A stretch of 64,000 bases of DNA from Podospora anserina (Eukaryota): NCBI GenBank assembly GCA_017654855.1, contig CM030337.1, positions 1,054,001-1,118,000 of the forward strand. Direction: 5' to 3'. The notes below the pieces were generated by a model. The model ran no database searches, had not been told where the DNA came from, and saw nothing but the letters and a program-made list of their open reading frames with translations. The position numbers were made by a program, and so were the translations under genes. Below, piece after piece: positions 19,256 through 34,659 of the stretch; the first letter of the stretch is position 1; each line of letters opens with the position of its first letter.

Positions 19256-20284
19256 TCAGTTCCCCCAACCCTCATAACCCTGCCCCCCAAACTGCTCCTG
19301 ATAAATCCGCTGCAAGTCCACATCCCCGCCAGCAACAGACGCCGCGGAACCAGAACCAGAGCCATCATAACCACCAACACCACCCTGAGAAGAAGGCGTC
19401 TCCAAAACATGATGAGAAAAAAACCCCATATCCCGAGGCAGAGAGGCAACAGGCGTCAAAGAAGGATCAGATCCCCCCCTCACACCCATCAAATTCCCCC
19501 TCCTCCCGCTGCTCATCATCACTGGAGGAGATCTTGACTGTGAAAGCAAAAAACCCTGGTTAGCAAAATTCCAGCCGTTTCCATCACCCTCGCCACCACC
19601 CTCACCACCACCCTCACCACCACCACCATTCTTCACCCCCTGCTGCCCCCCATTCATACCAGTAAAACTCTCCCCCATATACACCACCTCATCCTCATCC
19701 TCCACCTCCACCTCACCACCCTCCTCCTGTTTCTTCCCGTCAAGGAGATGGCGAGAGAACTCGGGAATATCACTCATCTTAACCCCACCACCATTGTTCT
19801 TATCGTCAAGATCATCCTCACCCTTTTTACCGCCCTTCTTCACGGCAGCAGCAGTCTTCTTTTTGGCCATCATCGGCATCTCCTCCGACTCGTCCGTCTC
19901 GGGCTTGACAGGGACGGGGTCGTCCTTGCGCTTGCGCTTGGTGGGGGTTTTGGCCGCGCTGGCTTCGCCGTTCTTGGGGACGTTGGCGGGGGTGAGGTCG
20001 TGCGCTTTGAGGAGGCGCTCGTAGCGTTTGGCGCTAGAGAGGAGAGGGTTAGTGATGGTGTTGGGGTGGGGAGGGGGAAGAAGGACTCACGCGGCAGCCT
20101 TGGAGACGATACCGAGCTCCTGGGAGACGGCGTCGAAGTTGACCTGTGGTTGTGGTGGTGGTGGTGGTTAGTGATGGGTGGTGAAGAAAAAAAGGGAGGG
20201 AGAGGGACTTACTCTACCGGCTGAGGCGTGCTTGACGCACGACAACAGGAACCTGAGGTGCTGCTCGGCGTCGAGGGCAGGCAT
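19256..20284 (-). CDS. Small Myb/SANT-like domain protein; exons 20284-20213, 20143-20091, 20033 onward
   Basis: MPALDAEQHLRFLLSCVKHASAGR|VNFDAVSQELGIVSKAAA|AKRYERLLKAH, followed by a basic TPTKRKRK tail. A further intron (about 19660-19538) could move the stop to about 19467. Confidence 0.75.
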
Positions 20285-21776
20285 TTTTGGCTGTTTTGAG
20301 GGTGGAGTTCGTTTCTGTGGGAGGGTTAGTGGGGGTGCCTACTACGAGTCGAAGAACTCCAACGACAAATCGAATTCGAGATTCCGCTTGGAAGTCGTGG
20401 CATCATCGCAATGGCTGTGTGAAGTACCTTGCGAGGTAATGTGGTAGGTGGTGGAATGATCTCGAACAAAGATGTTGTTCTGGGTGAGGTCGAGGAAAGG
20501 AAGTATGTGGGGGAGGGAGAAGACAAGGGTAGGACGGACAAGCTTTGTCGGAGTCGCGTCTTGTGGGCAGGCGAGGAGGATGACGCGGCTGCCTCAGGCT
20601 TGCAGGACTCGACGGAAGCGAAGAAGGGAACCACTTTGACTCGACTCTCGCAAACAATATGCGAGGGAGTTCAAGGCAAGAAGAGAGAGGAGTTGCGAGG
20701 GGGAGAGAGAAGTGGAGGGGATGGTTATAAGAAGGATTCGACTTACCAAACGTGGTTCCTAGTGGAGAGTGGTGATGTCGAGGTTGCAAGATCTTTGCAG
20801 TCGTTGCAGAGTTGAAGTCGAGATGTCGTCTGAAGGCAATGGGGGAAAGCGCTCGAGGTAGGTTGGAGCAAGTGAATTGGCCTGTCAAACACCTGTCTGA
20901 CTGCTATGTGTGTGGCAGTTGGTGACCTTGAGGGAGGGTGGTGATGATGGGACGGAAGAGGAGAGCAGGCTTCTGCAAAGGACCGAAGGATAGCAGAAAT
21001 AATGTACTGGTGTGCCCTAAGTGGGCCTACTGTCGTCAAATAAGACGCTTCGATTTACTCTTCGTGGTGATACTTGGTTGACGGCGGGATGTAAGCACAA
21101 AGGAGTAGCAAGCTTCGTTGCCTGAAAGTCCTATTGGAAGATGGGAAATTGGCCAGCGCCGAGCAATGAGTGACTGAGGAAGGTGGAAGTGGGACAGATG
21201 ATGCGAGTCCTTCTGAAAGATTCAAGTTGTCTGAGGATTAATTCTATCAGATCAAGTCTGGTAGTGGTTGACAGATGAAGTCTGTCCCAGTCTGGCTATG
21301 GAGAGAGACTTCAAGATGATATACACGACAAGACGCGTCGGCCTGTTCAACGTCTTTGCCCTGCTCCGGCAAGTACCACAAAGCAATAGACATACGGCAC
21401 CAAAGACATGAAAGTTTAGTTGCATATACCTGTCTTTGATGTATTTAACCCAGAAGCACCTGTCAAAGGAATCATTTGACGCTGGTACGCAGTCCAACTT
21501 CAAACACATCCAGGCGCCCAATATTTCAAGCAGAACTAAATCAACGCGGAAAGTAAGGACGGTTTATATATAATCTAGCTCTTCTCATCTATTTCGATCA
21601 GCGTTCTTTTTCAAAGCTTATTCACCCCTGATTTGCCATCCAGGAAAGGGGGCTTCAAGACAAGGGGCCGTGCGTTGGCACAGCAACTGCATGTCTTGGC
21701 ACCTCCTTTTGATCCAGCGCCTGCCAGGTGACATACTTGGAGGCCATGAAGCTACATTACCTACTTACCTAAATAA

Positions 21777-22979
21777 CATGATACCATTGAAGCAAACCCT
21801 GAAGACAACACAATCATCAAGCAGGCTGAGCAGTCTAAGGGAACAGACGACCGCCAGTCTAGCCATGACTCTGATGATGCGCCCCAGCCCTTGCAAGCCA
21901 CCCTTGACCATGGCAAGAATATGACCAGACCCGATGGACCTGGCAGGGTCGACAACGTAGATGGAACTGATGAGCCCACACCCATTGACGGCGATGACGG
22001 CTGCGAGAACATCGATGATCTAACCGACCTAGAGGCAGAGAAGGAGCGCGATGAAGAGCAAAAGAGGAAAGCGGAGGAGGAGGATAAGAAGAAGGAGGAG
22101 GAGAAGAAGGACGAAGAGAAGAAGGAGGAGGAGAAGAAGAAGGAAGAGGAGAAGAAGAAGGAGGGAGGAGAAGAAGAAGAAGAAGGAGGAGGAGGAGGAG
22201 AAGGAGAAGAAGAAGGAGAAGAAGAAGGAGGATGGAGACTGGATCAAAATCTTCACCGTTTCGATTCCCGCGATCACTCTCGGGTACCAATTGCAACTTC
22301 GCAATCACTGCGACTGGACTTGTGAGGTGGTCTTCCTCGATCGATGGCATGACTTGGAAGACTTCCGTTACTGGGTTCGCTATCTGTGGGACAGCGATTC
22401 GTTCCTCTTCGGCCAAACCAAAGAAGTTCCTCTATTCTTTCCATGGCGGCAAGAAAGTTGCCGCGTCAGCAAGGATAGCGGCCAAGTTCAAGAAGTGGGT
22501 AGAGAATTTAGAGAGCAATGAGCCGCTGGTTGTGGGCGGGGAGGACATGAAGATGTTTGTGCGTCAGGGTTTCGAGTTGGAGGACTTACTCGAATGGGAA
22601 GGGTTGGACGATTATCGTGTTAAGCGTTATGATGACGAGGACGATGATAATGATGACGATGAGCCCGAGGGAGGATATAAGGCGACGGCGCGGAAGGAGG
22701 CTGGAGAGGTGGCAGCAAGGCAAGGACCAGGAGGCGACAGTTCTGGTGTGGTGTGTCCCGCGGAAATTTAGGCGAAGCCGCAGGTACAGCCGCTGTGTCA
22801 GTTTCAGCAATGGGGCTCTTTGGGAGGAGGATTCTGAGGGTGTTTATAAACAGCGGATGAGCGAGATGGAGGAATTTCTTTGGGATGAGCTCAACGGCGT
22901 GCTGTCAGCCGTCGCTTTTCTGACTATGGTGCTACCGTCACCTAAACTTTTGGCCATGGTACTTGCCCTTTTGGCGTGA
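21777..22979 (+). pseudogene. Frameshifted relic of a K/E-rich protein gene
   Basis: Protein-like segments run consecutively through different frames (ORFs 21891, 22051, 22232, 22557). One shift lies in the GAG/AAG repeat. Confidence 0.4.
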
Positions 22980-25900: not shown

Positions 25901-26931
25901 GTCCGAGTAGGGGTCGACACCGCCGAGCCAGCTCTAACTCGCCCGGCTCAACCGGAAAAGTGTCGATTGGAGATGAGGGTGTGTGAAAGATGGTTAATAT
26001 GTTTTGGAAAAGACATCAACACCTACATATGTACTACACCCATCAAAGACACTTAACATACGTATCACCCCATCTCTCAACATCCTTGCCCTGCACCCTT
26101 ACACAACACACATACACACACCTTCAACCGCGATATTAGCTGACACATAAAGAAAGGTCAACCCATACCGTGTCATATCTATACCTCGAAGCATAATCAT
26201 CACACCTTCAAAGATATTCAAAACACCCATTAGTTCCCCTTCAAAGCACAGTTCACAACATACCATACCTCAACTTGCTTCTGCCATGCCAATTATCTTG
26301 TAGACACACTCACACATCACATCACATCACATCACATCATCACAAACATCAAGTCAACGTCCCTTTGGTATTGTGCGATATAACCACCCCCAACAAACTC
26401 AACGGAAAACAAATCCCGTAAACTCCCCCCACCCAACCATCCATCCTTTTTCCCTCCCATAATATCCCTTGACCCCAAGTCGGCGAGTGAAAAAACCCAG
26501 CAAGAGAGAGAGAGGGAGAGAAAAAGAAAAAAAGAAGAAAAAAAAGGCAGAAAAGAAAACCCATAACGCCTCCCCCCATGCAGATAGACCTCCATGAAAG
26601 AAAACCCCACCGAGTCACCCTTACGCCTTTATCCCCCCCCTTCCCCATCCCCCACCTAATGCCCAAACGCCAGTTTAACAAGTCGAAGGAAAAGAAGAAG
26701 AAGAAAAAGAAAAGCTGGCGAGGTAAAAGGGAAAAACACTTGATCGCAAATAGATGACGTTGTCAAGTGTGTCGCGTCAAAACGACACAACTTAGCCGGC
26801 GTAGCCAATGCCCACGTGGCGCCTAAACTCACGAAACAAAAAGTGGTTAGACATGCTCTAGACACACAGTTCAAACAGGAAAAAAAAAAAAAAACCAGTC
26901 AAACTGGGTGTGGATACAGACATGTGATGAC

Positions 26932-27280
26932 TTACGAGGCATCAGCCGAGTACACCGTCGTGGCAGCGCGGGGCTGACCATACGCATCATGGTCATCCTC
27001 CGAGTCCTCCTTCTTGACAATCGTGTCAGACTTGGGGGCCTCCTTCTTCACACCGCGACGCTTCTTGGCGGCGGGGGTGGGATCGGCCTCCTCATTGTCG
27101 GTTCCGTTGTCACCAGCAGCGGCGGCCTGACCCTTGCGCTTGTTGGAACCGGGAGTCTTTTTGGCCGCGGCCTTGCCACCACGGGCCTTGGCGGGGGTCT
27201 CAGGGGCATTGGCGCTGGATCCCTCGGCAGGACCGTCGTTGGCGGCGGTGTCCTTGCGCCGGAGCTTCTGGAGGTGCTGA
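26932..27280 (-). CDS. Constant exon C of the variable-first-exon Myb-like locus
   Basis: Branch CTGAC plus TCTCTCACAG acceptor (27283-27281). Phase-2 entry T|CAG CAC CTC CAG AAG CTC = QHLQKLRRKD, then a basic/acidic tail (NKRKG, AKKRRG). Stop at 26934-26932; an overlapping GTAAGT may indicate an extra terminal intron. Confidence 0.8.
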
Positions 27281-27348
27281 CTGTGAGAGAACGAGATGTC
27301 AGTGTAGGGTTCTCAAAAGGGATCAAGTGAAGCATGTCAGCAAAGTAC

Positions 27349-27506
27349 GTGATGGCCTTGACGGTGCAAGTATAGCCGAGTTCGTGCATTTGTTCCATCA
27401 CGGCTCTGAGCTGGTCCTGGGAGGGGCTCAACTCCTGGACGAGACAGAGGAGGAGGTCGTGGTTGGCCTGGAGGTCCCACTTCATGCGAGACTTGTCGAT
27501 GGCCAT
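27349..27506 (-). CDS. Variable first exon V1 (MAIDKSRMKWDLQANHDLLLCL...LGYTCTVKAI)
   Basis: 158 nt = 52 codons + 2; donor AC|GTACTT; 68-nt intron to the constant exon. Confidence 0.8.
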
Positions 27507-27801
27507 GTCTGCGACTTTTCTTGGTGAATGGCTTGAGGTGATGGTGATGTAGGTGTTGATGTTGATGTGGGATGAGGGTTGAGTGAAGAGTGAAAGAGAA
27601 GAGAGGGGAGGAAAACTAGGGCAGAGTCGACGAGGAGGAGGGGAAGGGACGGGAAGGAAATGAGGAAGAGTTGAAGAGAAGCGGAGCGGAGGGGTGAAGG
27701 TGTGCCAGGCAGCGATATTGTGTCACTTGCCACCGAACGTCAACTCGATGAGAATCGGCGGAAGGAACAAAAGCAACAGCAAAAGGGAAAGAACAGCGTA
27801 C

Positions 27802-27974
27802 AGTGCAGCGCCTTGGGTGTAGTTGTAGCCGCGGAGATTGGTGTAGGCAATGATGGCGTCCCAGCACTCGGCTTTGATCTCGCCACGCACAATCACTGCT
27901 TGAAGCAAGGTCAGGTGTGCGTCGTGATCCCAGACCGTGGTCGGCTTTCCAGAAAGAGCACGTCCAGGTGGCAT
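27802..27974 (-). CDS. Variable first exon V2 (MPPGRALSGKPTTVWDHDAHLTLLQAV...RGYNYTQGAA)
   Basis: 173 nt = 57 codons + 2; donor CT|GTACGC. Confidence 0.72.
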
Positions 27975-28242
27975 GTTGTTGGGTGATGTTGGTGAAGAAG
28001 TGGGTGTCTGGTGGTGGTGTAAAGTCGCTGAGGACAGGGTGTGCCTGGTGGTGGTTGTGAAAGAGTATGAGAGAAAGCTGCGGAGGCTTTTCGAGGGGAG
28101 AAAGAACAGATAACTGGGAAGTTGCCGGCAACGCCGAGAACCACGTCTTCGCTTGATGACCTGCTCATCCGAGTCCTGCTCTTTCCTGCCTGTGGTCCGA
28201 CGACTAATCAGACTACAGAAGGTAGGGGGAATGAGTGCTTAC

Positions 28243-28394
28243 GCTAGAGCTGAGCCCAAGAAATGATGGCCTTTGGTCCGGCAAGCCAGTGCGATCTCGA
28301 TCATATCCTGCTTTGACGGGTTCATCCACTCGTACATCGCCTGAAGCGCAGCCAGGTTCTGCTCCGCGCCCCAAATTGTAACCTTTCGGGCCAT
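28243..28394 (-). CDS. Variable first exon V3 (MARKVTIWGAEQNLAALQAMYEWMNPSKQD...KGHHFLGSAL)
   Basis: 152 nt = 50 codons + 2; donor GC|GTAAGC. Too short for the ORF track; translated by hand. Confidence 0.68.
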
Positions 28395-28641
28395 GTTGTC
28401 CGTGGTCAAACGGGTTGTTGTGATGATTTCAATCGTTGTCGGACGAAATATCGTTTGCGGACGAAAGAGGGTTGACGGACGAAGAAAAGAGGAAGGGAAA
28501 AAGAATGGGACTGTGAAGGAAAGGACGGAATATAAAGACTCTTGGGTTCGTTGGGTGCAACTCGGACCACATCAGTGGGTCGACAACTTTGTCGGTTCAC
28601 TTGTGATCTCCCGTCAACACCTATTCAGACGGATAACGTAC

Positions 28642-28802
28642 CGAAGGCCATTCCAGCCAATGTTGTAGCCACGCTCACGCATGGCCTTCACCAGCTGGTC
28701 CTTGTCTTCAGCCGACAAGGGGGCTTTCATGTTGTAAATGATTTCAAAGACGTCGTCTTTGATGTCCTCCCAGCGGTTGATATACTTGGTCGGCGGCGGC
28801 AT
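28642..28802 (-). CDS. Variable first exon V4 (MPPPTKYINRWEDIKDDVFEII...RGYNIGWNGL)
   Basis: 161 nt = 53 codons + 2; donor CG|GTACGT. Confidence 0.72.
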
Positions 28803-29084
28803 TGTGAACGGTGCTATGAAGGGTGAGATGTCGAGTGTGGTTAGAGGGTAGCGAGAGCAGCTCAGGTCAAGCTGAGGTGGTGTTTTGTGAATGGGGAAAA
28901 AGATAGCAGGTCAAAAACCAGGCTAGCAGTAAATAACTGGGCAGCTTGCTCACAGCCTGCTGGGAAAGGGCGACCACTGGCAGCACCACTAGGCAGGGCC
29001 AGACAGACGTGGTCCGATAAGGGGAGCAGGCCGATAAGGGGGCCAGACCAATGACGGAGTTGAAAGCAGCAGATGGAAACATAC

Positions 29085-29233
29085 CGAATCTTGTCCCAGT
29101 TGACGTCCTCGTGGCCCTTACTCTTCATCTTGTCCACGATCTGCGCCTGGACTTCCCTCCCCATCTCCTTGCTGTAGACGTCATACAAGCAGGTGAGGAG
29201 GTCCGAGTTGGACTGATTATCCCAGCGAACCAT
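29085..29233 (-). CDS. Variable first exon V5 (MVRWDNQSNSDLLTCLYDVY...KGHEDVNWDKI)
   Basis: 149 nt = 49 codons + 2; donor CG|GTATGT. Confidence 0.72.
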
Positions 29234-29472
29234 GTCGGCGATTGGTGTTGGTGTCGGTATTGTGTTGTGAGTGTGTGGTGCTTGAGAGAGTCGCAAGTTG
29301 CAAAAGGGAATGTGCTTGTTGTGGGAGAGAAAGTAGACTGACTGGCAAACAAACAGAATTTCCAGGTTATGGCACTAGCCAACAAGGATCTCGACTCGAC
29401 TCGACTACTGCAGGGCTTCAAGGCAGAAGACACGGAGAAAGTACAAACAAACAAACACTGCAGAATACGTAC

Positions 29473-29657
29473 CGGATAGCCTCCCAAGTGAAAGGCGAAC
29501 CCATGCGAGCCATGGTATCGACCACAATGTCCTTGCTGTTAGCCAGGCTAACGCCTTGGGCGATCAGAACGTTGTAGAGGCCCACGGCGAGGGCTTCATG
29601 AGGCTCATTGCCCCATTTGGTGTTGCCAACCTTCTCGGTGGTTCTCTTGTCAGACAT
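29473..29657 (-). CDS. Variable first exon V6 (MSDKRTTEKVGNTKWGNEPHEALAVGL...MGSPFTWEAI)
   Basis: 185 nt = 61 codons + 2; donor CG|GTACGT. Confidence 0.72.
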
Positions 29658-30158
29658 TGTTGACGGTTGATATCGAGTTGATCGTTGTCGAGTCTTTGCT
29701 GTATCCGCAGGAGGATGGCGAGATCTGGAGATGGTACAAGATCAGCAGCTTGGATGTCAGGATAAAGTCGAGATCGCGGGAGCAGATTTCGAGAGGAAAA
29801 CTAACGCAAGTTCTTGACAATGCCACCACCCCACCGTGCCAGCAAAGAACACAGGTTTGGCAAGCGCGGTGCTGAGGTAGGTAAGGCAGGAACGACAGGG
29901 GCAGCCTGGAGATTTCAACGCTCTTGCAAAGGGTATCGTGATACGGAAATATTATCCTGTTATTGCTGACGCCGAGATGTTAACCATAGCCCACCACGAA
30001 AGGGGTTCCATACTTCTTTTGAACCTTCGCCGATCCTCGCCGATCCGCCAGCGCCATTACCACATTATCATACAGTCGCATCTTTGTAACGTCCCAGACA
30101 AACCAAACAAAGGAAACACCAAGCCATCACGCTATATAGTATATATATGACGGACAGA

Positions 30159-31344
30159 TCAAGCCTCACCATAACTACTAAAGCTGCGACAAGGTGTCAG
30201 CGGCGAAAAGATATCAACAGGGAAGAGCTAAGTACTCACTCCTGACTATAGTCTCCCGGCGTGGGTTCATTGTGTGCTGACAGGGCATTCATCATAGCTT
30301 CATCATCCAGCGAACCACTTTGCGAATCGTCCAGCCTTTGCCGCTTAGCCATATGCTCGTCCGAGTCATCCTCCAGATTAGGGTCCACGGCAAGATCATC
30401 AGGGGATTCCATCTGGGCTGGTGGTGCGCCACCAGCATTGATGGGCCGAGATGGTGGGCGAACTGGTGTCTGCACCTGAGCCTGGACATTTTGAGCATAC
30501 ATGGGATGCATCTGAACACCGGGCGGCGGAGCAGGCATGCCAGGGATGACGGGCACCGGAACGCTGGTGATTTGTTGCGGCGTCGGAGGAGCGCTGGAAA
30601 CGGGAGCCACCCCCGGAGGACCAGGAGCCACACCCGGGACGGGGCCAGGAGCAACACTAGGGGCTAAGCCCGGGCCGCCACCAGGAGCCACACCGGGGGC
30701 TTGTCCTGGCCCGGCGGCGGCAATGGCGGCGGCGGCAGCAGCAGCAGCATGATCGGCAGCAGTTGGTGGAGCGGGGTTTTTTCTTGGGCGGCCTCGGCCG
30801 GGTCCTGGTCTCCGTGTGATGGGGTTCAAGGTGGGATCAATCTTTCTGGGACTGTTGTCGGGGTTGACAGTGCTGGAATCGGCCTTGTTCTGAGCACGAC
30901 GAAGGCCTTGGAAGTGCTGGCTGGGACGGTGTGTTAGATCAGATCAAACAGCATAAAGAACATTCCCGGTTGGATGGCCGATATCACAAATGGTAACTTG
31001 ACATCCGCCCGCTGACTGGCTGAAGGTACCGCAACAGACATCATCTCGGCTCAACTCGAGCAAACAATTGTTGATCAACTAAAAGGGGGTACAGGATTGG
31101 GGCAGAGATACAAGAGAAACAACAAGCAACAGCCACCGGCCAGTGCTAATCATTTACGGAGATACCAGACATGAATTACAAGAGAAACTCACCGACATCC
31201 TTCGTTGGTGAAGCCATAGCCCATGGAGCGCATATGGTTGCCGATGGTAGTCCATTCGCTGCCACTGATGACGCCAATGTTCTTGACGGACAGGATGGTG
31301 AAGAACAGGTCCTTGTCGGCCCGGTCGTTCCAGTTCTTGTTCAT
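30159..31344 (-). CDS. Myb/SANT-like plus AT-hook protein, 3 exons (31344-31193, 30920-30240, 30183-30159)
   Basis: MNKNWNDRADKDLFFTILSV...MRSMGYGFTNEGCR|QHFQGLRRAQ...RRPGPGRGRPRK (AT-hook), a Pro/Ala-rich region, AKRQR; canonical splice sites. Confidence 0.82.
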
Positions 31345-33412: not shown

Positions 33413-34659
33413 ATGGCCCACAACGATAATGCCATGACCCGGTTCCTCTTTGCCATACTCCAGCAAAAATGCCTCAAAGATGTATGTTTTCTCTGCTTCT
33501 TCTACCGCCACGGAGAGACCACTCACCAGGCCAACTTCGCGTCCAGATCGACTGGAACAAGGTGGCCCAAGATCCCAATCTCGCTCAGCCCATTACCAAT
33601 GGCCATGCCGCCCGCATGCGCTACTCGAGGTTCAGGTCGGCCATGCTAGGCATCGAACCTCAGAAACGAAACAGAGTCACCAAGCCGACAGCGAGGAAGA
33701 AAAAGACCACAGCAGCATCCACCTCACAAAAGGAAGCCGGCGATGGAGACACCCAAAACACGCCTGCTAAGCCCGACAATCCTCCAGCGAAGAAGATCAA
33801 GGTCGAAAGGTTATCGCCAAAGCCTGCCAATCCACAACTGCCTTCTCCAAAGTCGGATGCCATCCCAGCCAGCACCTTCGAAATCGAGACGGTCAGGATC
33901 AAGAAAGAAAGGACAGCATCTAGCACTCCTACCACAGCTACTATGTCGATGCCCGGGACACCCATCGACACGCCTCTCTTCTCCAACATGATGCATTCTC
34001 ACCGCCAGGGCCCAACTCCCATCCCGCCACCTGCGCACAATCACACCATGCGTCTTCTGACGCCATGCAGCGACCATCAATCCCCCGTGTCCGTCCAAGC
34101 ACAAGCATCAGACGTGTTGATGCATCACAATCTTAACCAAAACTTCATGACAGCCGCTCACAGCAGCCCTCTAAGCAATACTCACGACTTTCATCAACAC
34201 CATCATCAATCACAAACTCAGCCCCCCTACGATCACCACACCCACCACTTCGACACCGCGAGCCCCACCTGGGGCCACACAAGCCACATGTCGCAGAACA
34301 GTCCCGCGTCGGTATCGATGTACTCGCCCACAAACACGACCGCGACAGCCTTTGGCTACTCCCCATCCGCTGCCGCCCGCGATCACACACACTCACATTC
34401 GCAACACACCCAGTTCTCCCAGCAGCAACAAACACAAGAGGAGCGCAATCTCGGACTGATGGGGATGGGAATGGGAATGGGGATGAACACAATGAATATG
34501 AACCTCGCTGGGATGGACACGGGGCAGTTTGATTTCAATAATATGGTGATGCATCAGGGGTTGAGGACGAGTGTGTCGCCTTCTCCTGCTCACCCCATCA
34601 AAGCGGAGCATGCGTCGGGGAGTCCCCAGTGGGGGGCGATGGATGGGGGGTTTGTTTGA
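33413..34659 (+). CDS. Myb/SANT-like domain protein with a long disordered tail, 2 exons (intron 33482-33546)
   Basis: MAHNDNAMTRFLFAILQQKCLKD|IDWNKVAQDP...ITNGHAARMRYSRFRSAM; tail contains RLLTPCSD. Confidence 0.82.

What the first reader, a model, noticed from the sequence alone, without database searches (positions are those of the whole stretch)
26932..29657. Variable-first-exon / constant-exon array building six different Myb-like proteins from one locus
Seen: six tandem minus-strand mini-ORFs (V6 29657-29473, V5 29233-29085, V4 28802-28642, V3 28394-28243, V2 27974-27802, V1 27506-27349). Each starts with ATG in a good context and encodes a divergent version of one pattern: W-x5-7-(D/L)L-hydrophobic helix, then a second helix, then G(Y/H/S)-x-aromatic-(T/W)-x-x-(A/G)(I/L). 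Each ends at the equivalent residue with a GT donor, and all six lengths are 3n+2. I found only one exon that completes the domain: the acceptor at 27281, reading QHLQKLRRKD. It resembles the SHLQK helix of GARP/Myb domains and carries NLS-like basic motifs. Established: animal clustered protocadherins and UGT1A use this layout. Inference: alternative promoters plus cap-proximal donor choice yield six isoforms with different helices 1-2 and a different start of the recognition helix on a shared tail. Implied introns are 68, 521, 962, 1361, 1804 and 2192 nt, most of them long for a fungus. Gene callers would probably annotate only V1+C. I know of no description of such a system in fungi but cannot search the literature.
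Basis: partly seen in the sequence, partly recalled or inferred. Interest (0 to 1): 0.95.

Follow-up and report, generated by a model that had tools for sequence, protein, structure and literature searches.

The report
Fungal gene with six alternative first exons
A Podospora gene carries six interchangeable, protein-coding first exons that are each spliced onto one shared exon, so that one locus makes a set of small Myb-like nuclear proteins, a layout known from animal protocadherin and UGT1A genes but, as far as I could find, not described in fungi.

Summary
All six minus-strand mini-ORFs sit at the stated coordinates, each with an ATG, a length of 3n+2 and a GT donor. A profile of them finds only these six plus a seventh upstream copy in the 64 kb window. 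Spliced RNA contigs from four studies join V2, V4, V5 and V6 to the acceptor at 27280. The V1 and V3 joints were not seen. Sister Podospora species annotate V2+C and V3+C. A transcript-derived protein equals V5+C. The array, with 4-7 V exons, one constant exon, the same order and the same phase-2 donor, recurs across Sordariomycetes in annotated proteins and in 13 distinct metagenome loci. V exons are under purifying selection, with dN/dS of 0.04-0.26. AlphaFold models of V5+C and V2+C give a confident three-helix Myb/SANT-like domain whose third helix spans the splice junction. Own promoters for each V are inferred, not shown. Support comes from the conserved ATGs and a strong lack of upstream ATGs before each V start. 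Distal donors are consensus and proximal ones weak. Six literature searches found no description.

The parts
29473..29657 (-). V6 first exon (ATG 29657; donor GTACGT at 29472)
   Evidence: Joint 29473 to 27280 (skips 2192) in run X10. HMM E 7.8e-15. V6-type exon is first in the array in 7 metagenome loci.
29085..29233 (-). V5 first exon (donor GTATGT)
   Evidence: Joint 29085 to 27280 (skips 1804) in X2, X10, X13. Transcript-derived protein P0001 equals V5+C+last exon at 100% identity.
28642..28802 (-). V4 first exon (donor GTACGT)
   Evidence: Joint 28642 to 27280 (skips 1361) in X1, X2, X13. The RWEDI(K/R)DDLFE type is conserved widely.
28243..28394 (-). V3 first exon (donor GTAAGC). No junction seen here. 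Divergent in Podospora.
   Evidence: No joint at 28243 in the 4 runs, and the contig 27802-28671 runs through it. V3+C is the gene model QC763_0090820 of P. pseudopauciseta, with 5 of 51 residues different from the window.
27802..27974 (-). V2 first exon (donor GTACGC)
   Evidence: Joint 27802 to 27280 (skips 521) in X1, X2, X13. V2+C is annotated in P. bellae-mahoneyi and P. pseudoanserina and found as a Logan-derived protein.
27349..27506 (-). V1 first exon (weak donor GTACTT). No junction seen here.
   Evidence: No joint 27349 to 27280 in the 4 runs, and the contig 27252-27831 is unspliced. V1-type+C gene models exist in Triangularia, Cladorrhinum, Madurella, Neurospora sp., Copromyces, Lasiosphaeris and Cercophora scortea.
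26936..27280 (-). Constant exon C: 1 nt + QHLQKLRRKD..., then a K/A/P/E-rich tail. Acceptor CTCACAG, branch-like CTGAC 21 nt upstream.
   Evidence: All four V-C joints end at 27280. It is the only QHLQKL exon per array in every locus examined.
26823..26935 (-). 113-nt intron in the constant part.
   Evidence: Joint in all 4 runs. Splice sites and reading frame.
26792..26822 (-). Coding part of the last exon (…S RHVGIGYAG, stop TAA 26794-26792). The 3' UTR reaches at least 26719, or 26656 in X13.
   Evidence: The same C-terminus is present in P0001-P0003.
28813..28813 (-). Extra acceptor 11 nt upstream of the V4 ATG, used by the V5 donor (skips 271). It gives a frame that stops after 22 codons.
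   Evidence: Joint in X1 and X13. Translation.
29725..29805 (-). 81-nt intron upstream of V6, either in a V6 leader or in the 3' UTR of the V0 gene
   Evidence: Joint in all 4 runs. GTTAGT..CAG.
30159..31344 (-). Upstream paralogue (V0 gene): V0 exon 31344-31193, C0 exon 30920-30240 (QHFQGLRRAQNK, AT-hook GRGRPRK), last exon from 30183, stop TGA at 30161. 285 aa.
   Evidence: Joint 30240 to 30183 in all 4 runs. Found upstream of the array in L001, L002/L004, L008, L011 and L017.

Best explanation
This is one gene of a Podospora anserina-complex fungus with six alternative, homologous, protein-coding first exons (V6 to V1) and a shared constant part (exon C plus a short last exon). Each V exon supplies its own start codon, helices 1 and 2 and the first turn of helix 3 of a small Myb/SANT-like three-helix domain. 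Exon C supplies the rest of helix 3 (QHLQKLRRK) and a disordered basic/acidic tail with NLS-like KRK/KKRR runs. Splicing of one V donor to the single C acceptor, always in phase 2, gives up to six proteins of about 174-186 aa that differ only in the N-terminal 50-60 residues. Shown: the exons, the phases, four of the six junctions in RNA, the fold models, deep conservation and purifying selection. Inferred: productive isoforms start at V-specific transcription starts in the 240-300-nt spacers, and the first donor on each transcript is then joined to C. Consensus donors on distal V exons and weak donors on the proximal V2 and V1 would help this choice. Also inferred: the products are nuclear DNA- or chromatin-binding proteins in which a constant recognition helix and tail are combined with variable helices 1-2.
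For: Exons, phases and in-frame fusions are. RNA: GT..AG joints to 27280 come from 27802 (X1, X2, X13), 28642 (X1, X2, X13), 29085 (X2, X10, X13) and 29473 (X10). These are 4 runs from 4 studies, and all contigs are at least 99% identical to the window. The summed depths of the junction contigs (X1 103, X2 96, X10 36, X13 19.5) are of the order of the depth of the C-exon contig (150, 103, 48, 27), so these are not rare by-products. The tool warns that contig depth is a poor measure. Proteins: P0001 (Logan) = V5+C, P0002/P0156/P0157 = V2+C, P0003 = V3+C. Conservation: the profile search gave 389 proteins at E<=1e-3 and 83 at E<=1e-10. Of the 153 proteins with profile-detected V domains, 103 have 2-5 V domains. 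The V6>V5>V4>V3>V2>V1 order is kept in 24 of 26 proteins with two or more confidently typed domains. Taxa span Sordariales, Xylariales, Glomerellales, Hypocreales, Ophiostomatales, Togniniales, Coniochaetales and Lulworthiales. Genomic loci: in 16 of 17 metagenome loci, 69 of 70 V hits have a phase-2 GT at the equivalent place, all 70 lie on the strand of C, and there is one QHLQKL exon per array. dN/dS per V exon is 0.04-0.26 in three pairs. Fold: V5+C has helices 6-19, 26-38 and 46-64 with block pLDDT 89-97 over residues 1-60. V2+C has helices 17-30, 35-47 and 54-72. In both, helix 3 crosses the junction. The top structural neighbours are GT-1 trihelix (Z 7.2), RAD MYB (Z 7.1), ARR1 GARP, PHR2, Zeste, LUX and SANT domains. 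Own starts: the last 150 nt before each V ATG hold 5 ATGs in 6419 nt, against 41.4 +/- 6.2 in shuffles (0 of 1000 as low). The 5' parts of the same spacers hold 38 in 4961 nt. Donors: G at +5 in 31 of 32 distal donors (V6, V5, V4, Vx, V3) against 5 of 27 proximal ones (V2, V1), Fisher p 1.8e-10.
Against: No V1-C or V3-C joint appeared in the four runs laid, and contigs drop rare variants. Contigs cannot show transcript starts. In all four runs they run unbroken across spacers and through unspliced V donors: 29085-29724 includes an unspliced V6 in X1, X2 and X13, and 27802-28671 includes an unspliced V3. One contig continues from V6 into the upstream V0 gene. Many RNAs may therefore start upstream of several V exons, which would put earlier V ATGs in front of the V that is spliced. 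The V5 donor is also joined to an acceptor just before V4, giving a frame with an early stop. No Pfam Myb model reaches its threshold on any member. Myb_DNA-bind_4 matches weakly in 5 of 34 members, best E 1.2e-4. Structural Z scores of 5-7 are within the range the tool calls common for small helical folds. No protein-level evidence for any isoform was available. The runs are only guessed to be RNA by the index, though spliced GT..AG joints argue that they are. GTA and TAG are also low in the leaders, so part of the ATG deficit may be compositional.
Confidence: 0.8

Rival explanations
1. One promoter, alternative donors. Transcription starts mainly upstream of V6, or reads through from the V0 gene. 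The six donors compete for the single acceptor on one long pre-mRNA. Only the V6-C form would be translated as designed. Forms spliced from V5, V4 or V2 would carry upstream V ORFs and act as regulatory or decay-targeted isoforms.
For: Contigs are continuous over all spacers and over unspliced V6 and V3 in the runs laid. A contig links the V0 gene's last exons to V6. In X10 the contig between the V6 donor and the V5 donor (depth 20.1) has about the depth of the V5-C joint (18.5). The V5 donor also pairs with an acceptor before V4. Spacers are short at 233-289 nt.
Against: Every V exon in every locus keeps its own in-frame ATG and is under purifying selection as coding sequence, which a purely intronic or regulatory role does not explain. 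The 150 nt before each V ATG are about ten-fold poorer in ATG than the rest of the same spacers, as expected of scanned leaders. Junction usage differs between runs: X10 shows V5 and V6 only, X1 shows V2 and V4. Contig depth and continuity are explicitly unreliable for starts.
Confidence: 0.15
2. Relics and noise. V2-V6 are decaying first exons left from tandem duplicates of a V+C gene whose constant exons were lost. The junctions seen are splicing noise onto the only acceptor in reach.
For: V exons are only 18-30% identical to each other. V3 is unusually divergent within the Podospora complex (5 of 51 residues) and showed no junction. A conventional one-V paralogue (V0 gene) lies next door.
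Against: V types and their order are conserved across several orders of Sordariomycetes. dN/dS is 0.04-0.26 for each of V6, V4, V3, V2 and V1. ORFs, ATGs and phase-2 donors are intact in 69 of 70 copies. The junction contigs together have a depth near that of the C exon.
Confidence: 0.03
3. One multi-domain protein. The V exons are internal repeats of one long protein (V6-V5-...-V1-C), as many automatic gene models in other genomes suggest.
For: 103 of the 153 proteins with profile-detected V domains contain 2-5 V domains in one predicted protein, for example P0004 with 409 aa and P0011 with 528 aa.
Against: The linkers in those models are read-through of the donor (R-Y-V from CG|GTACGT) and translated leader sequence, and they are not conserved between species. 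In the window every read-through frame meets a stop. All V lengths are 3n+2, so V-to-V joining cannot keep frame. The RNA joints go from V donors straight to C. The only V-to-V joint seen gives an early stop.
Confidence: 0.02

Closest known systems
Clustered protocadherin (Pcdh alpha/gamma) and UGT1A loci of vertebrates (recalled from general knowledge, not from a call)
   Same: A tandem array of homologous first exons, each with its own start codon, is spliced to the same downstream constant exons. The variable part gives the specific N-terminal portion and the constant part a shared C-terminal portion. Long introns skip over the downstream V exons.
   Different: The proteins are unrelated (a small nuclear three-helix domain rather than cadherin ectodomains or a glycosyltransferase). 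The scale is tiny: V exons of 149-185 nt, spacers of about 250 nt, a whole array of 2.4 kb. The junction cuts through a single helix of one domain, so no V exon encodes a complete fold on its own. The host is a filamentous fungus. Promoter choice per V exon is shown for the animal loci but only inferred here.
Drosophila lola and mod(mdg4) (recalled, not from a call)
   Same: One locus gives many isoforms of a nuclear DNA/chromatin-binding protein by combining a constant part with one of many alternative exons that encode the variable part of the binding module.
   Different: There the constant part is 5' and the variable exons are 3', in part joined by trans-splicing. Here the variable exons are 5' and carry the start codon.
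Myb/SANT-like three-helix domains: plant trihelix GT-1, RAD-type MYB, GARP (ARR1/ARR10, PHR1, LUX); Pfam Myb_DNA-bind_4 and Myb_DNA-bind_8
   Same: Predicted three-helix bundle with a conserved Trp in helix 1 and a long basic third helix. The best structural neighbours are these domains. There are weak Pfam matches to Myb_DNA-bind_4 (5 of 34 members) and Myb_DNA-bind_8 (1 of 34).
   Different: No member reaches a Pfam threshold. Only the first of the three regularly spaced Trp of classical Myb repeats is conserved. Foldseek E-values are all above 0.29.
Neighbouring one-V paralogue (V0 gene, 31344-30159) and other small helix-domain-plus-basic-tail genes in the window (from 33414 on +, from 20284 on -)
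   Same: The V0 gene has the same exon plan: a first exon of 3n+2 with ATG, a phase-2 donor, and a second exon starting with 1 nt + QHxQxLRR, then a long disordered tail. The gene at 20284 has an intron inside its third helix at the equivalent place. The gene at 33414 matches Myb_DNA-bind_8 just below threshold (25.8 against 27 bits).
   Different: Each of these has a single first exon and its own downstream exons. Only the array shares one constant exon among several V exons.

Membership tests
Variable-first-exon / constant-exon locus (Pcdh/UGT1A-type organisation) | Tandem array of homologous first exons, each with its own start codon | tested here: met
   Six ATG-initiated exons in the window. 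The profile finds only these and V0 in 64 kb. The same holds in 12 further arrays.
Variable-first-exon / constant-exon locus (Pcdh/UGT1A-type organisation) | Each variable exon is spliced to the same constant exon | tested here: inconclusive
   Met for V2, V4, V5 and V6 through RNA joints to 27280. V3 is supported only by a gene model in a sister species, and V1 only by gene models in other genera. There is one C exon per array in all loci.
Variable-first-exon / constant-exon locus (Pcdh/UGT1A-type organisation) | Each variable exon has its own promoter / transcription start | not testable with these tools
   Only assembled contigs were available, and they cannot show starts. Indirect support comes from conserved ATGs and ATG-poor leaders.
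Variable-first-exon / constant-exon locus (Pcdh/UGT1A-type organisation) | One variable exon per mature mRNA | tested here: inconclusive
   P0001 and P0157 are transcript-derived ORFs with a single V. However, contigs with unspliced upstream V exons and one V5-to-pre-V4 joint exist.
Myb/SANT-like (homeodomain-like) three-helix DNA-binding domain | Three-helix bundle fold | tested here: met
   AlphaFold2 models of V5+C and V2+C have three helices, with 10-residue block pLDDT of 89-97 (residues 1-60 of V5+C) and 89-95 (residues 11-60 of V2+C).
Myb/SANT-like (homeodomain-like) three-helix DNA-binding domain | Structural similarity to solved Myb/SANT/GARP/trihelix domains clearly above background | tested here: inconclusive
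   Top matches are GT-1 (Z 7.2), RAD MYB (Z 7.1, rmsd 2.9 over 61), ARR1, PHR2, Zeste, LUX and SANT domains at Z 5-7. The tool says Z under 8 is common for such models. Foldseek's best E is 0.29.
Myb/SANT-like (homeodomain-like) three-helix DNA-binding domain | Match to a curated Myb/SANT profile at its threshold | tested here: not met
   There are no Pfam families for P0001 and only unrelated sub-threshold matches for P0002 and P0003. Among 34 members, Myb_DNA-bind_4 matches 5 (best E 1.2e-4) and Myb_DNA-bind_8 matches 1 (E 0.041). No match at a curated threshold was seen: the per-member table gave none for P0001, and the summary for the other 33 lists only E-values.
Myb/SANT-like (homeodomain-like) three-helix DNA-binding domain | DNA or chromatin binding | not testable with these tools
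   Needs ChIP, EMSA or localisation experiments.
AT-hook protein (name given by UniRef to P0002) | GRP core flanked by basic residues | tested here: not met
   Reading the C tail shows KARGGK and KRKG but no R-G-R-P. The motif is present in the neighbouring V0 gene product (GRGRPRK).

The most novel reading that the evidence does not exclude
Sordariomycete fungi have kept, for the age of the class, a miniature protocadherin-style locus. Choice among 5-7 closely packed promoters, enforced by a built-in gradient of donor strength (consensus distal, weak proximal), decides which version of helices 1-2 is fused to a constant recognition helix and tail. A single gene thereby yields a stage- or condition-specific repertoire of chromatin/DNA-binding proteins. 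This would be the first variable/constant exon system outside animals, and one in which the splice junction lies inside a single protein fold.
Probability: 0.5. Interest if true: 0.9.

Novelty: new variant of a known kind. Interest (0 to 1): 0.85.

Why it matters
Alternative splicing in filamentous fungi is thought to be mostly intron retention and small shifts of splice sites, with short introns. The genome-wide Podospora study I read passages of reports only these classes (PMC9801653). A conserved locus that builds several proteins by joining one of six coding first exons to a shared exon, over introns of up to 2.2 kb, would show three things. Fungi can use the variable/constant exon logic known from animal protocadherin and UGT1A genes. 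A single small protein fold can be split by such a junction. Donor strength may be tuned along an array. It also has a practical side. Current fungal annotations treat the locus inconsistently, with different single isoforms, split genes, or chimeric read-through proteins, all named 'hypothetical protein'. Orthology tables and proteomes for many Sordariomycetes are therefore wrong at this gene. Podospora and Neurospora-type fungi are genetically tractable, so promoter choice and distant-donor splicing could be dissected directly.

Tried and rejected
No whole genome is held for the window.

Pfam scans of the V exons, C exon and full V+C proteins gave nothing meaningful.

A word-based homologue search with the V2 domain found only the query itself. 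The profile search was needed to find relatives.

The look-up of sequencing runs listed no run that is on record as RNA. The four runs I laid are guessed RNA and were accepted as such only because they contain GT..AG joints.

V1-C and V3-C joints were not found in the four runs. This is no proof of absence.

The region 27317-27709 has little or no cover in X13 and X10. This is not used as evidence.

Earlier findings of this scan: three look-ups, by place, by sequence and by words, returned nothing.

Six literature searches gave no paper describing such a locus in fungi. One search failed on a term's syntax and was re-sent. The library lacks most subscription journals.

The last homologue search, meant to find Neurospora crassa isoforms, returned Neurospora sp. 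IMI 360204 and Copromyces V1+C models but no N. crassa entry.

Spacer conservation between related metagenome loci (77-86% for L010/L017, 55-67% for L008 against either) is about what synonymous sites show. It gives no separate evidence for promoter elements.

I considered reading contig depths as a flow balance to locate transcript starts. I rejected this as unsafe, given the tool's warning that a contig has one depth figure.
Full report
**What is in the sequence**

Each begins with ATG with A at -3. Their lengths are 185, 149, 161, 152, 173 and 158 nt, all 3n+2. Each is followed at once by GT (GTACGT, GTATGT, GTACGT, GTAAGC, GTACGC, GTACTT). Joined to the exon that starts at 27280 behind ...CTGAC...CTCACAG, each gives an open frame that continues x-QHLQKLRRKD and a lysine/alanine/proline/acid-rich tail.

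The six peptides are only 18-30% identical, and pairwise BLAST is mostly marginal. A profile built from their relatives finds seven hits in the whole 64 kb window, all on the minus strand: the six V exons (E 1e-20 to 9e-12) and one more upstream (E 8.5e-9). The next best hit has E 2.9.

**Two corrections to the anatomy**

First, the TAA at 26934-26932 is part of a GTAAGT donor. A 113-nt intron (26935-26823) is removed in all four runs examined, and a short last exon adds RHVGIGYAG before the real stop at 26794-26792. The same C-terminus is present in the database proteins P0001-P0003.

Second, the seventh V-like exon (V0, 31344-31193, 152 nt, 3n+2, donor GTGAGT) belongs to the upstream neighbour. 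That gene has its own second exon beginning with 1 nt + QHFQGLRRAQNK, an AT-hook (GRGRPRK) and a long proline-rich tail, for 285 aa in all. The ancestral unit is therefore a two-part gene, a V exon plus a C exon split inside helix 3. The array is that unit with the V exon multiplied.

**RNA evidence**

The run index listed no run on record as RNA. It did list 14 runs guessed to be RNA that hold 69-91% of the words of the stretch. I laid the assembled contigs of four of them, from four studies. All laid contigs are at least 99% identical to the window. They contain canonical GT..AG joints, which only spliced RNA can give.

Joints to the acceptor at 27280:

| Donor | Exon | Skipped (nt) | Runs |
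|---|---|---|---|
| 27802 | V2 | 521 | X1, X2, X13 |
| 28642 | V4 | 1361 | X1, X2, X13 |
| 29085 | V5 | 1804 | X2, X10, X13 |
| 29473 | V6 | 2192 | X10 |

The depths of the junction contigs add up to 103, 96, 36 and 19.5 in X1, X2, X10 and X13. The contig that carries exon C has depths of 150, 103, 48 and 27. As far as contig depth can be trusted (the tool warns it is a poor measure), these junctions are the main ways in which exon C is used.

No joint from V1 (27349) or V3 (28243) was present. Contigs run unspliced through both. Contigs drop rare variants, so this is not proof of absence.

Other joints:
- The V5 donor is joined to an acceptor at 28813, 11 nt before the V4 ATG (X1, X13). This gives a frame that stops after 22 codons.
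- An 81-nt intron (29805-29725) lies upstream of V6.
- A 56-nt intron (30239-30184) lies in the V0 gene.

Contigs are continuous across the spacers, and one contig runs from V6 into the V0 gene. Contigs cannot show where transcripts begin.

**Database proteins**

A search with exon C found three proteins:
- P0001, derived from Logan assemblies, is 100% identical and equals V5+C+last exon.
- P0002 (Podospora bellae-mahoneyi QC761_0090480) equals V2+C.
- P0003 (P. pseudopauciseta QC763_0090820) equals V3+C.

V2+C is also the model in P. pseudoanserina and a second Logan-derived protein. The window therefore comes from the Podospora anserina species complex.

The same annotations call a separate 'gene' made of V6 and V5 fused by an invented intron (P0010/P0154).

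V3 differs at 5 of 51 residues between the window and P. pseudopauciseta. V2 (against P. bellae-mahoneyi) and V6 and V5 (against P. pseudocomata) are identical. Together with the missing junction, this suggests that V3 may be the least constrained exon in this lineage.

**Conservation in proteins**

A profile of the six V exons searched against 1.84 billion representative proteins gave 389 hits at E<=1e-3 and 83 at E<=1e-10. Among the 153 proteins with profile-detected V domains (the 150 listed plus a few other stored proteins), 103 contain two to five V domains in one predicted protein.

Inspection shows these are gene-caller chimeras. Each V unit begins with M. It is followed by read-through of the donor (R-Y-V from CG|GTACGT) and translated leader sequence. 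The last V is fused to QHLQKLRRK and a basic/acidic tail.

The V types are recognisable across species, for example:
- V4: RWEDI(K/R)DDLFE
- V2: WDHDAHLxLLQA
- V1: MxWDxxADHDLL
- V6: ...TWEAIR

They keep the order V6>V5>V4>V3>V2>V1 in 24 of 26 proteins with at least two confidently typed domains. The 2 exceptions, and most exceptions at the looser cut-off, involve domains typed as V1 by best hit. At least in P0006 that domain sits in the V3 position, a type that Podospora's own V3 matches poorly.

Named sources are Cercophora, Apiosordaria, Triangularia, Echria, Sordaria, Podospora fimiseda/australis/appendiculata, Chaetomium, Zalerion (Lulworthiales), Xylaria, Monosporascus, Colletotrichum, Coniochaeta, Grosmannia, Phaeoacremonium, Escovopsis and Madurella. 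All are 'hypothetical protein'.

In different genomes, different V types are the one joined to C in the model:
- V1-type in Triangularia, Cladorrhinum, Madurella, Neurospora sp., Copromyces and Lasiosphaeris
- V2-type in P0016, P0026, P0050 and P0074
- V3-type in P0015 and P0110
- a V5/V6-type in P0057, P0103 and the transcript-derived P0134

**Conservation in genomic DNA**

A scan of metagenome contigs with the QH[LI]QKL pattern gave 17 fungal loci, 13 of them distinct at under 95% identity. In the 16 loci with V hits there are 70 hits. All lie on the strand of C, and 69 have a GT in phase 2 at the equivalent position. Each begins with an in-frame ATG, except one cut by the contig end and one where my start-finder failed although the M is visible.

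Each array of 4-7 V exons is followed by exactly one QHLQKL exon behind an AG plus one base. The V0-type gene with its own QHFQGL exon lies upstream in L001, L002/L004, L008, L011 and L017.

For three related loci (L008, L010, L017), dN/dS per V exon is 0.04-0.26, and 0.11-0.14 over all V exons. Every V type tested (V6, V4, V3, V2, V1) is thus maintained as coding sequence.

**Fold**

AlphaFold2 with a 34-sequence alignment gives these helices:

| Protein | Helix 1 | Helix 2 | Helix 3 | Confidence |
|---|---|---|---|---|
| V5+C | 6-19 | 26-38 | 46-64 | block pLDDT 89-97 over residues 1-60 |
| V2+C | 17-30 | 35-47 | 54-72 | block pLDDT 89-95 over residues 11-60 |

The tails are disordered. In both models the V/C junction (residue 49/50 and 57/58) lies in the first turn of helix 3. 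No V exon encodes a complete domain, and most of the long basic third helix is constant.

Foldseek finds nothing at E<=1e-3. Its top rows are GT-1 trihelix, ARR1/ARR10 GARP, RAD MYB (TM 0.73 on the target), PHR1, Zeste and homeodomains. An all-against-representatives structural search ranks GT-1 (Z 7.2), RAD MYB (Z 7.1), TEAD, ARR1, PHR2, Zeste, LUX and several SANT domains at Z 5-7. The tool itself calls this range common for small helical models.

Pfam gives no family at threshold. Myb_DNA-bind_4 matches weakly in 5 of 34 members and Myb_DNA-bind_8 in 1. 'Myb/SANT-like three-helix domain' is therefore the best description of the fold, but membership of a curated Myb family is not established.

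The tail has invariant or near-invariant T-P, KK and KRK positions and an acidic run. It looks like a nuclear, possibly phosphorylated, basic/acidic tail. This is inference only.

**How it most likely works**

Shown: alternative V donors are joined to one acceptor, always in phase 2, to give different N-termini on a constant C-terminus.

Inferred: each productive mRNA starts in the spacer before its V exon. Three sequence features support this.

- Every V exon in every species keeps its own ATG, which internal or purely intronic copies would not need.
- The last 150 nt before the V ATGs (43 spacers, 12 loci including the window) contain 5 ATGs in 6419 nt, against 41.4 +/- 6.2 in composition-matched shuffles (0 of 1000 as low). 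The 5' parts of the same spacers contain 38 in 4961 nt, a ten-fold difference. Other permutations of A, T and G fall 1.8 to 6-fold. This is what scanned 5' leaders look like. GTA, the start of a donor, is the next most depleted.
- Donor strength follows position. G at +5 is present in 31 of 32 donors of the distal exons (V6 is GTAAGT in 6 of 8 loci) but in only 5 of 27 donors of V2 and V1 (typically GTAATT and GTACTG), Fisher p 1.8e-10.

A simple reading is this. On a transcript that starts at a distal V, the first, strong donor must beat the weaker downstream donors for the single acceptor. The weak V1 and V2 donors suffice when they are first on the transcript and the intron is short (68 and 521 nt here). 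It is plausible but untested.

**What speaks against, and the main rival**

The contigs are continuous through spacers and unspliced V exons. In X1 the contig that covers V2, V3 and two spacers has a depth (115.6) above that of the V2-C junction (63). Many RNAs may therefore span several V exons. On such RNAs an upstream V ATG would precede the V that is spliced.

A model with one upstream promoter and competing donors, in which only some products are translated as designed, cannot be excluded with contigs. I give it about 0.15. Relic exons plus splicing noise (0.03) and a single multi-domain protein (0.02) are contradicted by selection, phase, stops in the read-through frames and the joints themselves.

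**Comparison with what is known**

The organisation works like the vertebrate clustered protocadherin and UGT1A loci, and mirrors Drosophila lola/mod(mdg4). These are recalled, not from a call. It is not related to them.

It differs in scale (the whole array is 2.4 kb), in host, and in that the junction splits a single small fold.

Six full-text searches combining Podospora, Neurospora and other fungi with alternative, variable or multiple first exons and constant exons returned no description. I saw search listings and abstract starts only.

In the passages I read of the genome-wide Podospora RNA-seq re-annotation (PMC9801653, by term search), the authors report intron retention, alternative 5' and 3' sites and exon skipping. 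Those passages do not mention this locus.

The scan's own earlier findings held nothing on it. The library lacks most subscription journals, so 'not described' is provisional.

**Verdict**

This is a real, conserved, selected variable-first-exon/constant-exon gene in Sordariomycetes. Direct RNA support exists for four of six isoforms in this species. Promoter choice and function are still to be shown. I rate it a new variant of a known kind of system, with interest 0.85.

Noticed in passing
window 30159-31344 (-): The upstream neighbour is a one-V paralogue of the array gene: V0 exon MNKNWNDRADKDLFF..., phase-2 GTGAGT donor, own second exon QHFQGLRRAQNK, AT-hook GRGRPRK, 285 aa. It is syntenic with the array in five distinct metagenome loci, and its V0 exon is almost invariant between them.
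   Followed up: partly
window 33414-34659 (+) and 20284-19256 (-): Two more genes have a small N-terminal helical domain split by introns and a long basic tail. The one at 33414 matches Pfam Myb_DNA-bind_8 just under threshold (25.8 against 27 bits). The one at 20284 has an intron inside its third helix (…SKAAA | AKRYERLLK) at the place equivalent to the V|C junction. That makes four genes of this general kind within 15 kb.
   Followed up: partly
window 28813 (-): The V5 donor (29085) is also spliced to an acceptor 11 nt upstream of the V4 ATG in two runs. The product frame stops after 22 codons. This could be noise or a regulatory, non-productive isoform.
   Followed up: partly
window 26823-26935 (-): The donor of the last intron (GTAAGT) contains the stop codon TAA. 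Intron retention would therefore end the protein at ...SADAS, while splicing adds RHVGIGYAG. The depth over the intron is about a fifth of the exon's in the four runs.
   Followed up: partly
metagenome loci L001-L017 and window, V donors: A gradient of donor strength runs along the array. Distal V exons have consensus donors (V6 GTAAGT in 6 of 8). V2 and V1 mostly lack G at +5 (GTAATT, GTACTG). The split is 31 of 32 against 5 of 27.
   Followed up: yes
window 28243-28394 (-), P0003: Podospora's V3 is a divergent version of an otherwise well conserved type (W(D/T)AETHEAILLAL...GYTFTEGAL in other genera). It differs at 5 of 51 residues between two species of the complex, whereas V2, V5 and V6 are identical to other members of the complex (different species pairs). 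It may be losing function in this lineage.
   Followed up: partly
window 21760-22770 (both strands): There are long open frames of very low complexity (runs of E/K/R/G on one strand and S/P/L/F on the other). This is probably a highly charged repeat region of a neighbouring gene.
   Followed up: no
window 30125-30150 (-): A TATATATACTATATAG stretch lies about 10 nt after the stop codon of the V0 gene and about 470 nt upstream of the V6 ATG. It could serve as a polyadenylation element for V0, a TATA box for V6 transcripts, or both.
   Followed up: no
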